DNA of 64,000 bases, from the NCBI RefSeq assembly GCF_963676685.1, contig NC_092346.1:88784001-88848000 (forward strand), in the 5' to 3' direction. The stretch's first letter is position 1. Each line of letters begins with the position of its first letter. This stretch comes from Mytilus edulis (taxonomy: Eukaryota). Below are positions 36,001-42,000 of the stretch, in pieces. Position numbers: made by a program.

Positions 36001-39000
36001 CAATGCAATACAAATACAATACAATACAAAATACATTACAATACAAAATACAAGACAAGACAAAACAATACAAAATACAATACAATACAATACAATACTA
36101 TAGTGTTATCAACTGGCTGTTTCTGTGTTGGTACTGGTATAGATTCAAGGTTTGCTGTATTGGCTAAGGGGCCCATAGAGTGGAGGGCCAATACAGTTGA
36201 CCGAGAATCTTTACCAGTGCCAATACAGAAACAGCTAGTTCATAACACTTTCCTTAAATAATGTAACTTTTTCAATACAGACTTGCTCTGAATGCTGTAT
36301 TACATACATCAAATGAGAATATAGGGCCACTTTTTCCAATACTGACTGGCAATGATGTGAATATAGGGCCAATATTTCCAATACGGACCGGCAATGAATC
36401 CTGAATTACATGCACGATATATGTTTACATGTAATTCAGGATTCATTGCCAGTCCGTTTTGGAAATATTGGTCCTATATTCACATCATTGCCAGTCAGTA
36501 TTGGAAATATTTGACCATTATAAGATTTATATGACCAGGACGATGTCATCAGTATGACACATGCCGTTTTGGTAGTATAAGANNNNNNNNNNNNNNNNNN
36601 NNNNNNNNNNNNNNNNNNNNNNNNNNNNNNNNNNNNNNNNNNNNNNNNNNNNNNNNNNNNNNNNNNNNNNNNNNNNNNNNNNNNNNNNNNNNNNNNNNNN
36701 NNNNNNNNNNNNNNNNNNNNNNNNNNNNNNNNNNNNNNNNNNNNNCTATACAATACAATACAAAATACAATGCAATACAAAATACAATACAATACAAAAT
36801 ACAATACAATACAATACGATACAATACTATAGCCCATTGGCGTGTGGGGCAGCAACGAAGTTTCTCCACATCTGCCTGTTTTGTGCCGTCTTCTTCAAGT
36901 TCCCCCAAGTATGTTGGAAATTTGCCATCTCAGACTCAACTGTGCGCCGCAATGTTAATTTAGGTCGTCCTCTGCGTCTCTTTCCCTCTGGGGTTCAGAA
37001 CTTTGCTGTTTTTGTAAGTTCTTCAGGGCTCTTACGTAGAACATGACCAATCCATCTTCATCTTCTCCTGCTAATAATTATGCTGATCTCTTCCTGTTTG
37101 CATTTATTGAGGAGGTCTGATCCTGGTTGGTGATTTTTTTGTGGCTAAAATATCCTCAGGATTCTCCTCAGACTCTTGGTATGGAATGTAGAGAGTTTCT
37201 ATTGGTCTGCCTCTGTCATTCGCCAACATTTAGAACCATACAACAGGATAGGTAGTATACAACTGTTGTATAGTTTTAGCTTTGTCCGGATGGTGTATTG
37301 ACCGGATTTCCATACGGGCTGCAGGTTATTAAAAGCAGCTGTGGCTTTTGACAGTCTTTGTTTGATGTCAGTGTTGGCTCCACCATCTGATCTTACAGTA
37401 CGTCCTAGGTAAGTGAATGTATCGGTCTGTGGTAATGGTTTCCTGTTTATTATAATTGGTGCTGGTTGATAGTGTTTAAACTCATTACTTCAGTTTTCTT
37501 AGTGTTTTAGTGGTGTTACACCATAGGGTAATGAAATGCATCTAATGAGGCGGGTATCGACCATTAGATATACCGCTGCCGCTGGCTAGCCTACTGGGGT
37601 CCAGTATTCCAGGCTAAATTGCAAGTGATCTCGGAGCAGGAATGGCCCTAGAGATGCAGAGTGCAGGCCCACCGGCGAGTGGATACGCCCTGGCTCTCAT
37701 CAACCTTGCCCCAGCTATGGGATAATAGCCCCACTGCCTTGTGGGTGACTTTGGAAAGTCAAAGGTTATGAAAGTAAATACAGAAAGAAAATCCGGGTAG
37801 ATGGAACTCGTAAGCTCATGCAGTCGTCTAAGGGATGGAACTCTTAAGCTCATGCAGTCGTCTAAGGGATGGAACTCTTAAGCTCATGCAGTCGTCTAAG
37901 GGATGGAAAACCCCTACAGAATAACCCGACCCTTCAGGTAGAAGGTTTTGCTTAGAGTTAATGACCCTAACAAGTAAAAGAACTCATGTTACAGAAACAG
38001 CAACGAAGAATATAACTACAGCTGTGGAAGAGAGTCTCCAACGCACCAATAGGGGAGCAAGGATGAATGTAGGTAGTGACAGCCGAAAGGAAACTACAAA
38101 CAGGAGAACGGAGACCCTTAACATGGCATAAACTAAAACCAGAATTGGTTTTTGGAGCGTCATAACAGTGTATGTAGCAGGAAAATTGGCTCAAATAACC
38201 TCAGAAATGCAGCGGTACAAATTAAATATCTTAGGCGTTAGTGAAAGTAGATGGACAGGCAGATGACAACTACTTCAGGAGCTACTGAAGCATACTCTGG
38301 GCGAGATGATAACCAACATCATGAAGGAGTGACAATAGTTATCAAAAAGGGTATAGAAAGAACACTGTTAGAATGGAAACCTATAAGCAATCGAATTATT
38401 ATGGCAAGATTCAAAGGAAAACAGATAAACATCACTTTATTTCAATGTTATGCTCCTACGAATGAAGCTGACAAAGAGAACAAAGATGCAATTTACGAAC
38501 AATAACAGCATGAAATTGATAAAACACCAAACCATGACATGAAGATCATCATGAGAGACATGAATGCAAAAGTGGGGTTGGACAACATTGGATACAAAAG
38601 AGTTATGGGAACGCATGGTTGTTGTAAGATAAATGAGAATGGGGAACGACTTGTCGATTTCTGCTCAACAAACAATTTAGTAGCAGGAGGTTCCATTTTT
38701 CCACACAAAGACATCCACAAACTGACATGGTATTCCACAAACCTCAGGGATAAAAACCAGATTGATCATCTAATATTAAACAGCACATGAAAAAGATTAG
38801 ATGTGAAAGTTAAGAGAGGAGCCAATGTAGGATCTGACCACCAACTGATAACAGCTCTCATCCAACTGAAGCTCAGAGCAACTGGAAAGAAAGTTTCATC
38901 AAGGAAGCGTTTTGATATTGATAAACTGGAGGATATCAAGGTTAAAAGAGAATTTGCTTTAAAGTTACAGAACAGATACCAGGTATTGGAAAACTCAGTA

Positions 39001-42000
39001 AGAGATGAAAATGAAACATTAGAAACATTAGATGAGAAGTGGAATGAGATATCAGATATATACACTAAATGTAGCGAAGAAAAAAGATTGGATCACACCG
39101 GAAATATGGAACCAGATTAACATCAAAAGACAGACAAAAAAGAAGGTCATTAATACCAAATCACCAAGATTAAAGAACAAATACCAACAAGATTATAGTG
39201 GCAAACATCGCAATGTCAAAACCCTTGTTAGAGCTGATAAGAGAAGATATAAGGATAATTACGCAAATCAAGCAGAAGAAGCGGCTAATAGAAGAGAGCA
39301 GGGCAACCTCTACAAAATTACCAAAATTATCTGTCGAAAATTCAAGTCATCACCTAACATCCCAGTGAAAGACAAGCAGAGAAATTTACTAACATCAGAA
39401 ATTGAACAAGAAAAAAGATGGGCAGAACACTTCGGTGAAATTTTGAACCGATCATCTTCAAAAGAACTTCCTTCTATTCCAGAGCCTAGCATTGAACTGG
39501 AAATAAGTATTGAACCACCAACGATATCTGAAATTGTAGCAGCAATCAAGACTCTAAAGAACGGAAAAGCTCCTGGTTCAGATAATCTGAATGTAGAACT
39601 GTTCAAAACTGATCCCATCTTAGCGGCCAATACCCTCCAACCAATTTTCCATAAGATCTGGAAAGAAGATAAAGTACCAACAGAATAGGATAAAGGTACA
39701 TGTATTATCATCCGAATACCTCAAAAAGGGTGCATTAAATGACTCCAATAACTGAATCACTGAGAACTATCATTGAACAGTGCACAGAATGGCAGCGGCA
39801 ACTCTACATCAATTTCATCGACTTTGAAAAAGCATTTGATAGCATTCCTAGGGAAACCCTTTGGAAAATCGTACAATTTTATGGCATCCCACAACACCTG
39901 ATCCATTTAATCAAGGCTGTTTATGAAAATTTCAAATGTACAGTCGGAAGTGAACAACTTTACTTCCCAATTAAACTGGAGTAAGACAAGGATATGTTAT
40001 GTCATCTACACTATTTATAATAGCCGTTGACTGGGTGATGCGACAAACAACTGTAGACTTCCCTAGAGGTATAAGATGGGGAACTTTCACCATTCTTGAA
40101 GATTTGAACTTTGCTGACGATATTTCCATGCTGTCGCACACTCATCAACATATCCAGAAAAAGTCCAGTCGAATAGAAAAGTCGGCAGGACAGATAGGTC
40201 TCAAAATAAACACTAAGATAACATAGGTTGAAGAGGGTTAGTAATTTTGGCAAAAGTAAGTGAAAAATTCAAAAGATCAGGAGTATATGAATAAAAGGTG
40301 CAGATACCAGAGAAAGCCTTAAAAGAGTTCGTTTACCACATAGAAAATAACACCAGCTGCTGAAATGAATGATCAGAACTTCCTTGAGATTTTGTGAGTG
40401 GCAAGAAAGGAGACAATCGAAAAATTGGGATCTAAAAGGGATAACATTAAGTTGATATTACACTGTATTTTTGTAAAAAATTAACCCTACGGGTAAAGAT
40501 AGCGTGGAAAATAAGGGGCACTCAGGATCACTCACTACTTAGTTTATAGGGCTGGGACAGAAGACGTATGCCTTTACATTAGGTAGGTGTGAGACGAAGA
40601 AAGGTAACGGTATGAAAGAGTGCACTTTTAAATCCGGACTTACATTCACAGACTGTTAAACATCATACCACATCTTCTTTTATATACATGAACAGAATAA
40701 GCTACCGAACCATGCATATGCTCAGAGGTCGAGGTCACAATATTTACACACTTGAGTGTCGAAAGAAAGCTCTTTCAGCTGATGATGACAAACGGAATAT
40801 TTCACCTAATGGGATCAACACTGACTCACGGGCATTATACAATTATTTGAATTAATGAAATGTAAAAGTTTGTCTTGACTCGCAATGAAAAACCATACCT
40901 CCTTGCATTTGCAAACTATGAAATTAAAAAAAAAATACCTTATAGAGATATAACTTATAAATTATAATTATGACTATGAACTTACAACAGTTGTGTATAA
41001 GAAAGATTCTCGAGGCTGCGATTTCAAGTCACTATAATACTATAACTATAGGGATACTAACCACTTTCAACAGCATTCAATATTTAATCACTTCGGTACT
41101 GGCATGAACATACGGATTTTGTGTTATTAAATTTGCTGTTATCAAATTTTGGATTTTTTTTGAAATAAGGAATATTTCTCCATCATACAAAGGTCTGATT
41201 CCTTGCACGGCTTTGATTATACGCTTTGTCCTTTTTGATTTATAGCTCTTCGTTTTTTTAATAAGCTTTGAATTTTCAAATACTTGTAACCTCGAGCATC
41301 ATTGAAGAGACATTGATTGTCAAAATGCGCATCTGATTCTGAGAAATTACTGTTTATGACAAAAATGTTATAGATATAGACCACATAAAGGTGCGACAGT
41401 TTTACAAACACCCGAATATGTTTTGAGTGACACCAGAAGAAGCTAGCGTGTGGACCCATGATTTAATGGCGGTATATTGACATAACTATCCATACTACGA
41501 GACAGACACACCACGGCCAAAAATTTTGCTCATGTACTCCATAGACTTGAATACGCCGACGATTAGTTTCTAGAGTAAAAGTATATCCTGAAAAAACTTT
41601 ACACGAGATCCCTTTCTACCCTTCTTCAGGATGAGAGTAATCAAGAGTTAGTAATTACAATAATTGTTTTATTATAACCAGAAGATATATGTTCTCATAA
41701 GATGATAGCAACTCTGCAGTCGTTTTGTGAGAACATTAATTATTCAACTACATAAGATTAATCTTCCCGACACACCCTTATACAATAGAGCTGGGTGGAG
41801 CTGGTGCCGCTCTTGAGATATCTAATTTCAGACGAGTGTATATACGAGACGAATAACTTTCCAAACCACATAGTGAGAAGTATGGTATTTTAACTTTAAA
41901 ACCACGACACCTCAATTGGTCCAGGTACACATTGGACGTGTTGGTTTCAGAATACCTTCACAAAGGTTTACTATGATGGACTCCCACCCTCAAAGGGAGA

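What the first reader, a model, noticed from the sequence alone, without database searches (positions are those of the whole stretch)
36746..40218. Near full-length RTE LINE with a twin-priming-type 5' inversion
Seen: the plus-strand part runs from the 5'UTR to RT and stops at ...AAACACTAAGA (40208-40218, INTK). The minus-strand part starts with the same 11 nt (37507-37497) and continues KTEVM to the C-terminus and TATTG tail. The element's 5' end abuts the start of the 3' part. Known: this geometry (flank, inverted 5' segment starting at the internal priming site, sense 3' segment, tail) is the twin-priming product described for mammalian L1. Inference: an RTE-clade element underwent twin priming, with the internally primed cDNA running about 2.7 kb to the RNA 5' end. 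I know this mechanism mainly from L1.
Basis: partly seen in the sequence, partly recalled or inferred. Interest (0 to 1): 0.7.

Follow-up and report, generated by a model that had tools for sequence, protein, structure and literature searches.

The report
Dead mussel LINE, front part inverted
A decayed RTE-type jumping gene in a mussel genome has its first 2.7 kb flipped relative to its last 0.7 kb, the pattern that twin priming leaves in mammalian L1 elements, but the decisive proof (a duplicated target site) would lie under an assembly gap.

Summary
AAACACTAAGA occurs only twice in the window, on opposite strands, at 40208-40218 and 37507-37497. Natural RTE-like proteins match the plus strand (38063-40223 = residues 1-748 of a 1003-aa oyster relative). 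They then continue on the minus strand (37465-36830 = residues 758-967), down to a stop codon that touches a (TATTG)n tail. Both copies of the 11-mer fall on the same NTKK codons. Both parts rank the same relatives highest (rho 0.80). Nothing element-like continues right of 40218-40222.

The copy is dead: at least 8 stops, at least 5 frame changes and one deletion of about 46 codons. The host is a Mytilus mussel.

Twin priming during insertion is the best explanation (0.6), but it is inferred. The target-site duplication would lie under the N run. No empty site or other family copy could be reached. The outer 438 nt of the inverted part (37508-37945) could not be shown to be the element's own 5' end.

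A later inversion with an 11-nt staggered break, or a misassembly, is not excluded. This is a known rearrangement type, here seen in a clade where my searches found no description. Interest is modest.

The parts
36583..36745 (.). N run (163 N) that abuts the tail. It hides whatever follows the tail, including any target-site duplication. It was left as it is.
36746..36826 (-). 3' tail of the element: 5-mer array of the (TATTG)n type on the minus strand, at least 81 nt long, cut off by the N run.
   Evidence: TRF array 36748-36831, period 5, also period 17 at 92% matches
36827..37507 (-). Sense 3' segment: the last part of the RT domain, the C-terminal region (DUF6451-bearing in relatives) and the stop codon. 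It is a broken gene piece with 4 stops and at least 1 frame change.
   Evidence: It matches residues 758-967 of P0004. 84 of 114 relatives match it.
37497..37507 (-). Minus-strand copy of the shared 11-mer, at the first bases of the 3' segment.
37508..37945 (+). Outer 438 nt of the inverted part: non-coding, G+C 0.50, presumed 5' UTR but not assigned. It holds a 34-nt unit repeated 3.2 times at 37800-37908.
37946..40218 (+). Inverted 5' segment of the ORF: N-terminal leader, AP-type endonuclease, linker, and RT up to the INTK codons. It is a broken gene piece with 4-5 frame changes, 4-5 stops and one deletion of about 46 codons.
   Evidence: It matches residues 1-748 of P0004. 114 of 114 relatives match it.
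40208..40218 (+). Plus-strand copy of the shared 11-mer, at the last bases of the inverted segment, next to the flank.
40219..40222 (+). Four bases of which three continue the match. They are either more overlap with one later change, or micro-complementarity of the target, or chance (P = 0.069).

Best explanation
This is a dead copy of an RTE-clade LINE in a Mytilus genome. It is inserted in minus orientation, and its 5' 2.7 kb was inverted at the moment of insertion by twin priming.

Proposed course of events. The nicked bottom strand primed on the (UAUUG)n tail and copied about 0.68 kb of the RNA. The 3' end of the other target strand annealed to the same RNA internally, at the NTKK codons near the end of the RT domain. 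It copied the remaining 2.7 kb towards the RNA 5' end. Joining the two cDNAs left the 5' part in the opposite orientation, with 11 nt (perhaps 15) copied by both.

Shown: the geometry, the contiguity of the two parts in element coordinates, that both parts belong to one family and are similarly decayed, and the abrupt end of homology at the flank.

Inferred: that the inversion arose during insertion, and that 37508 is the RNA 5' end.
For: The 11-mer occurs only twice, inverted, at the two predicted ends. P0004 residues 1-748 lie on + and 758-967 on -, and its ...INTKKTEVM... spans the break.

In 83 of the 84 relatives that match both parts, the minus part starts -6 to +25 residues after the end of the plus part. 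The value is 47 in one partial protein. The same relatives are the best for both parts (Spearman 0.80). There is no RTE-like HSP elsewhere in the window (0).

The 300 nt right of 40218 show no similarity to the continuation of the element (score 16 against a shuffle mean of 18.9; 296 of 300 shuffles reach it). There is no inverted duplication at the other breakpoint (one search lists none; my reading).

The length without the tail is 2711 + 681 - 11 = 3381 nt. This lies between the canonical 3.2 kb and the 3583-bp mean given for bivalve RTE-BovB (passages of PMC10294476). The 292 nt at 37508-37799 have G+C 0.503, reached by 2 of 2392 windows outside the element, so they do not look like ordinary local flank.

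RTE-clade TSDs peak at 10-12 bp. That is within the range said to be needed for the second priming (passages of PMC4245944).
Against: No target-site duplication can be read: the tail runs into the N run, and the readable DNA left of it holds no candidate (longest match 6 nt, below all 300 shuffles). No empty site, second allele or other copy of the family could be examined (no other copy in the window; no eukaryotic genome collection was on hand).

Nothing ties 37508-37945 to the element by homology: there is no RNA family, no fold signal (z -0.01), no tRNA, and no homologue of its 79-aa ORF.

In cell assays, 5' inversion was seen almost only with human L1 (one Nimb-2_DR insert, none with ZfL2-1; passages of PMC4245944). 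This is a single locus, 762 nt from a contig end.
Confidence: 0.6

Rival explanations
1. Post-insertion inversion. A collinear minus-strand copy (full-length, or 5'-truncated together with some flank) was later broken twice and the middle piece re-ligated in reverse. An 11-nt staggered break inside the RT region, filled in on both ends, would leave exactly the inverted 11-nt duplication seen.
For: The model reproduces the positions of both 11-mer copies (my derivation). The outer 438 nt of the inverted piece are not tied to the element by any homology, so they could be flank.
Against: It needs the second break to fall at, or by chance near, the element's 5' end, and to be blunt, since no inverted duplication exists there (reading). 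The 292 nt at the inner junction have a G+C content reached by only 2 of 2392 local windows. The total length fits a full-length RTE.
Confidence: 0.2
2. Assembly artefact: a wrong join or flipped piece near the contig end at the N run.
For: The inversion junction lies 762 nt from the N run, and the contig starts inside a microsatellite. Contig ends in repeats are error-prone (general knowledge).
Against: The part left of the junction is not a fold-back copy of the part to its right. It is the missing remainder of the element. The shared word is only 11 nt and is not palindromic, which is too short for an overlap- or k-mer-based join (inference). No other copy of the family exists in the window that could have been mixed in.
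Confidence: 0.1
3. Two independent fragments: a 5'-truncated minus-strand insertion next to a separately inserted, later 3'-deleted plus-strand copy.
For: Nested and adjacent LINE fragments are common in repeat-rich genomes (general knowledge).
Against: The two break coordinates would have to agree within about 15 nt in a 3381-nt element (roughly 0.01 by inference). The copies would also have to abut head to head. Target-primed insertion does not produce 3'-truncated copies. Both parts rank the same relatives highest and are similarly decayed.
Confidence: 0.03

Closest known systems
5'-inverted L1 insertions of human and chimpanzee, ascribed to twin priming (Ostertag and Kazazian 2001, recalled, paper not held; passages of PMC2912911, and PMC3024322)
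   Same: The 5' segment is inverted and the tail-bearing 3' segment is in sense. The two are adjacent in element coordinates. The internal coordinate of the inverted segment faces the 5' flank. A small overlap at the junction fits what I recall of L1 inversions, which carry small duplications or deletions.
   Different: The clade is RTE, not L1. The tail is a 5-mer array, not poly(A). The host is a bivalve. The inverted segment seems to reach the 5' end. The TSD and the 2-5 bp microhomology at the 5' junction that about 70% of 5'-inverted L1 copies show cannot be read here.
RTE-clade (RTE-BovB type) LINEs of bivalves (passages of PMC10294476), and natural relatives such as P0004, Saccostrea echinata LOC133197034
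   Same: A single ORF with AP-type endonuclease, RT and a DUF6451-bearing C-terminus. The length is about 3.4 kb. The tail is a microsatellite, as in the RTE elements tabulated in PMC6007223.
   Different: This copy is rearranged and dead. Identity to the nearest protein is only 63-67%. I did not resolve RTE-BovB against RTE-X by a tree.
The single 5'-inverted Nimb-2_DR insert obtained in chicken DT40 cells (passages of PMC4245944)
   Same: A 5' inversion of a LINE that is not L1.
   Different: That one is an experimental insert of a zebrafish element of another clade. Here we have an old genomic copy whose origin is inferred.
Short inverted duplications at the breakpoints of chromosomal inversions made by staggered breaks (recalled from work on Drosophila; no paper opened)
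   Same: The same short sequence sits in opposite orientation at the two ends of an inverted segment.
   Different: Here only one of the two breakpoints is duplicated, and the other coincides with the apparent end of a mobile element.

Membership tests
RTE-clade LINE | One ORF with an N-terminal AP-type endonuclease followed by a reverse transcriptase | tested here: met
   The window matches residues 1-748 and 758-967 of P0004. P0004 carries Exo_endo_phos at 31-264 and RVT_1 at 618-780. Direct Pfam hits on the window's pieces: RVT_1 on 2 of 8 plus-strand pieces, at 29.1 and 20.2 bits, both under the 29.6 cut-off; there was no endonuclease hit on the pieces.
RTE-clade LINE | C-terminal region as in RTE relatives (DUF6451) | tested here: inconclusive
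   The minus part aligns over P0004 residues 758-967, which include DUF6451 at 801-833. However, that Pfam match is itself under its cut-off in all 3 relatives scanned (21.4-26.7 against 28 bits). In addition, 0 of 4 minus-part pieces hit any family.
RTE-clade LINE | Short element (about 3.2-3.6 kb) with hardly any 3' UTR and a tail of short tandem repeats instead of poly(A) | tested here: met
   The length is 3381 nt without the tail. The stop codon lies within the first tail units. Lengths come from passages of PMC10294476. Microsatellite tails of RTE elements are tabulated in PMC6007223.
RTE-clade LINE | Placement inside the RTE clade in an RT phylogeny | not tested
   No tree was built. 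The clade name rests on architecture, length, tail and the names of relatives, such as 'endonuclease-reverse transcriptase' and 'craniofacial development protein 2-like'. The link of the latter name to RTE is recalled.
Twin-priming 5' inversion | The 5' segment is inverted relative to the tail-bearing 3' segment, and both come from one element | tested here: met
   84 of 114 relatives match both parts; Spearman 0.80; similar decay
Twin-priming 5' inversion | The segments adjoin in element coordinates with a small overlap or deletion, and the internal coordinate of the inverted segment faces the flank | tested here: met
   The overlap is 11 nt, or 15 nt with one mismatch. Homology ends at 40218-40223.
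Twin-priming 5' inversion | One target-site duplication flanks the whole structure | not testable with these tools
   The tail runs into the N run 36583-36745, which I was told to leave. There is no candidate in the readable DNA left of it.
Twin-priming 5' inversion | An empty site shows that the flanks are collinear (nothing but the element is inverted) | not testable with these tools
   No eukaryotic genome collection was on hand. The flanks are unique in the window.
Twin-priming 5' inversion | Micro-complementarity between the target's 3' end and the RNA at the internal priming site | tested here: inconclusive
   Three of the 4 bases after the 11-mer continue the match (P = 0.069 by chance). 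Without the pre-insertion target, target-derived and element-derived bases cannot be told apart.

The most novel reading that the evidence does not exclude
The 11 nt at 40208-40218 were not copied from the RNA. They are the target's own 3' overhang (RTE target-site duplications peak at 10-12 bp), which happened to be fully complementary to an internal site of the RNA. The locus would then be a natural record of the primer-template pairing that the twin-priming model postulates. It would show that in the RTE clade a whole TSD-length overhang can serve as the second primer. The same 11 nt would then recur as a direct repeat beyond the tail.
Probability: 0.1. Interest if true: 0.55.

Novelty: new member of a known kind. 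Interest (0 to 1): 0.3.

Why it matters
Twin priming is documented almost wholly for mammalian L1. In cell assays, 5' inversion hardly occurred with other LINEs, and its occurrence was linked to the length of the target overhang (passages of PMC4245944).

A natural 5'-inverted RTE copy in a mollusc would suggest that the second-strand priming step is shared by a distant AP-endonuclease LINE clade with 10-12 bp target duplications. It would also give annotators a reason to look for paired, oppositely oriented RTE fragments.

As a single decayed locus without a readable target duplication, it is a lead for a family-wide census and not a demonstration.

Tried and rejected
1. A ribozyme or other known RNA at the presumed 5' end. 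Rfam at E up to 5 over 35000-42000 gave nothing in 37508-37945 apart from chance-level rows. The fold of 37508-37800 has z -0.01. No tRNA was found. The bacterial promoter/terminator scan is not meaningful for this eukaryote.

2. Other copies of the family in the window. There are none by blastn and none by tblastn with 114 relatives. The flanks are unique, so no nested-repeat empty site could be found in the window.

3. Tying the 5' stretch to the element through proteins. Its 79-aa minus-strand ORF has no homologue. tblastn of 114 relatives on 37508-38062 gave only weak hits, the best at E 0.003-0.013, and all of these lie at 37946-38062.

4. A target-duplication candidate left of the N run. 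None was found.

5. A longer, decayed overlap right of 40218. None was found.

Stop-free pieces taken from the ORF listing gave RVT_1 on 2 of 8 pieces and nothing on 4 minus-part pieces.

7. I dropped the idea that the second (TACAA)n array and the shared TACTATAG mark a partner SINE. TATAG is one change away from the repeat unit and also occurs at the gap edge.

8. The founding twin-priming paper is not held. Two searches failed on term format and were re-sent.

The one search of protein representatives, structure prediction and the atlas were not used.
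Full report
OBSERVATION.
- AAACACTAAGA stands at 40208-40218 on the plus strand, and its reverse complement at 37497-37507.
- In the whole window the word has exactly two matches, these two, one per strand. One hundred shuffles gave a mean of 0.14, and none had two.
- The repeat finder extends the pair to 15 nt with one mismatch (37493-37507 against 40208-40222). An ungapped comparison shows the same.
- By the window's base composition, three or more matches in four further bases has a chance of 0.069. 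The overlap is therefore 11 nt for certain and possibly 15.
- A run of 163 N (36583-36745) directly abuts a 5-mer array at 36748-36831.

WHAT THE TWO PARTS ARE. A 218-aa open stretch of the plus part (39032-39685) finds 114 proteins at E <= 0.001 among 1822 candidates.
- The best is 63% identical. Named hits come from oysters, snails, sea cucumbers, sea urchins and lancelets.
- Three full-length relatives scanned with Pfam all show Exo_endo_phos, Exo_endo_phos_2, RVT_1 and a weak DUF6451. That is the single-ORF endonuclease plus RT layout of RTE-type LINEs.

By tblastn, the named oyster relative P0004 (1003 aa) matches the plus strand from 38063 to 40223 with residues 1-748. It matches the minus strand from 37465 to 36830 with residues 758-967. 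P0004 reads ...INTKKTEVM... at this point, so both copies of the 11-mer lie on the same codons.

With all 114 relatives:
- 114 match the plus part and 84 match both parts. The other 30, many of them partial proteins, do not reach E 1e-3 on the minus part.
- No RTE-like HSP lies anywhere else in the window.
- In 83 of the 84, the minus part begins -6 to +25 residues after the last residue matched by the plus part. In one 570-aa partial protein the value is 47.
- The identities of the two parts to the 84 relatives are correlated (Spearman 0.80), and the same proteins lead both lists.

Direct Pfam evidence on the window is thin. RVT_1 hits 2 of 8 plus-strand pieces at 29.1 and 20.2 bits, under the cut-off of 29.6. 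Nothing hits the 4 minus-strand pieces. The ORF's stop codon (36827-36829) lies within the first units of the tail, so there is practically no 3' UTR. Without the tail the element measures 2711 + 681 - 11 = 3381 nt.

STATE OF THE COPY. Measured against ten full-length relatives:
- The plus part shows 4 frame changes with 8 references and 5 with 2.
- It shows 4 stops with 9 references and 5 with 1.
- It has one deletion of about 46 codons with 9 references. With P0004, which itself lacks part of that region, the gap is 15 residues.
- The minus part shows 4 stops with 10 of 10 references, and at least one frame change (inferred).

The gene is therefore broken at least 8 times by stops and at least 5 times by frame changes, and once by a deletion. 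It is a relic.

THE OUTER END OF THE INVERTED PART. Some relatives have longer N-termini, and these align to 37946-38062 in the frame of the ORF (best E 0.003-0.013). They share a short leader motif with the window's translation. Upstream of that, 37508-37945 (438 nt) has no link to the element by homology:
- No Rfam family was found.
- There is no fold signal (z -0.01).
- No tRNA was found.
- Its 79-aa ORF has no homologue.
- It has no repeat elsewhere in the window.

Two indirect points speak for its being the element's 5' UTR. First, its first 292 nt have G+C 0.503, reached by 2 of 2392 windows outside the element (mean 0.324). Second, with it included the element has the length expected of a full-length RTE-BovB-type element: canonical 3.2 kb, with a mean of 3583 bp in curated bivalve families (passages of PMC10294476). 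Neither point is proof.

FLANKS. Right of 40218 the sequence shows no similarity to the continuation of the element (local score 16 against a shuffle mean of 18.9; 296 of 300 shuffles reach it). It is unique in the window.

The tail side ends in the N run, which I left as it is. The readable DNA left of it holds no same-strand match to 40208-40248 longer than 6 nt, which is less than all 300 shuffles gave. A target-site duplication can therefore be neither shown nor excluded.

MECHANISM. The arrangement is: flank, antisense segment from an internal coordinate to the apparent 5' end, sense segment from the same coordinate to the tail, tail. This is what twin priming predicts. One target strand primes on the tail, and the other primes internally on the same RNA (model as summarised in passages of PMC2912911). 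I rate this at 0.6.

The main rival (0.2) is a later inversion by two breaks. An 11-nt staggered break inside the element, filled in at both ends, gives the same inverted 11-nt duplication. That model needs the second break to be blunt (no inverted duplication is listed there) and to fall at or near the element's end.

A misassembly (0.1) is not suggested by the structure. The part beyond the junction is the missing remainder of the element and not a fold-back, and an 11-nt non-palindromic word is too short for an assembler's join. Even so, the junction is only 762 nt from a contig end, and no reads were available.

Two independent fragments (0.03) would need matching break points within about 15 nt of 3381, a head-to-head abutment and a 3'-truncated copy.

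COMPARISON WITH WHAT IS KNOWN.
- For L1, 5'-inverted copies make up about 31% of 2068 species-specific insertions. Only 28 of 605 lack microhomology at the 5' junction (passages of PMC2912911). 142 twin-priming events were called among human L1HS against chimpanzee (passages of PMC3024322).
- In cell assays, 5' inversion appeared only with human L1 in human cells, plus one Nimb-2_DR insert. The authors tie it to target overhangs of 10-20 nt. The same paper gives 10-12 bp as the TSD peak of the RTE clade (passages of PMC4245944).
- I recall from Ostertag and Kazazian 2001 that L1 inversions carry small duplications or deletions at the junction. That paper is not held.

I found no description of a 5'-inverted RTE copy in any of four searches:
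- 'twin priming' with 'RTE': 11 papers hold both terms and 9 are listed. I opened 4. The passages I saw in two of them (PMC6007223; PMC5389967) use the founding paper only as a citation. The other two (PMC4245944; PMC2912911) describe twin priming for L1 and name the RTE clade only in passing. The 5 I did not open concern L1, U6 and SVA by their titles.
- The six-term search: none of the 25 listed papers holds 'twin priming'.
- The five-term search.
- 'mobility pathways' / 'RTE clade' / 'nested transposons'.

A 2026 paper on Bov-B insertion signatures has no occurrence of 'inversion', 'inverted' or 'twin'. Subscription papers are largely outside this library, so absence from it is weak evidence.

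HOST AND CONTEXT. A 432-aa open stretch on the minus strand (33869-35167) is 96% identical to TSC22 domain family proteins of Mytilus trossulus and 90% identical to one of M. californianus. The window is therefore mussel DNA and not human. The element lies about 1.6 kb upstream of that exon.

LIMITS. The record collections hold phages, plasmids and E. coli. Three things therefore stayed unchecked: a census of the family, its true 5' end, and an empty site. The element was only read, translated by reference and compared as it stands.

Noticed in passing
window 33869-35167 (-): A 432-aa open exon ending at a GT donor. It is 96% identical to Mytilus trossulus TSC22 domain family proteins and 90% identical to a M. 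californianus one. It names the host genus and shows that the element sits about 1.6 kb upstream of this exon.
   Followed up: partly
window 35841-36582: A second array of the same 5-mer on the same strand as the tail, 262 nt long (35841-36102). It is followed by 480 nt made of two fold-backs: arms 36102-36164/36187-36249 (84% complementary) and 36319-36412/36428-36521 (90% complementary). There are sub-threshold Rfam matches to the miRNA-precursor families MIR5512 (60.2 against 139 bits) and mir-5879 (58.6 against 97 bits). This looks like a MITE-like foldback element. Whether it inserted into a once longer tail, or carries a tail of its own, is open.
   Followed up: partly
window 37800-37908 (+): The three 34-nt units in the presumed 5' UTR are 98% alike, although the ORF of the same copy carries at least 8 stops. 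The array probably grew or was homogenised after insertion.
   Followed up: no
window 37946-38062 (+) and proteins P0021, P0022, P0027, P0060: A short leader motif upstream of the methionine used by P0004 and P0002 is shared by the window and by relatives as distant as a lancelet protein. It could be an N-terminal extension of the ORF or a conserved RNA signal.
   Followed up: partly
window 23828-26958: A satellite of 47-nt units, 66.6 copies at 91% matches. It has a strong purine excess on the plus strand (GC skew 0.28, AT skew 0.32 in 24001-26000).
   Followed up: no
window 11018-12444; 18873-19273; 2958-3552; 58382-59018; 44029-44340: Further tandem arrays: 42 nt x 34; 42 nt x 9.5; 161 nt x 3.7; 167 nt x 3.8; and 21/91/112-nt periods. 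The ORFs of 192 aa and 144 aa listed at 11539-12117 and 18849-19283 lie inside two of these arrays and had no convincing Pfam match.
   Followed up: no
window 33632-33660: A third short array of the same 5-mer (5.8 units), about 210 nt downstream of the TSC22-like exon on the same strand. It is probably a plain microsatellite.
   Followed up: no
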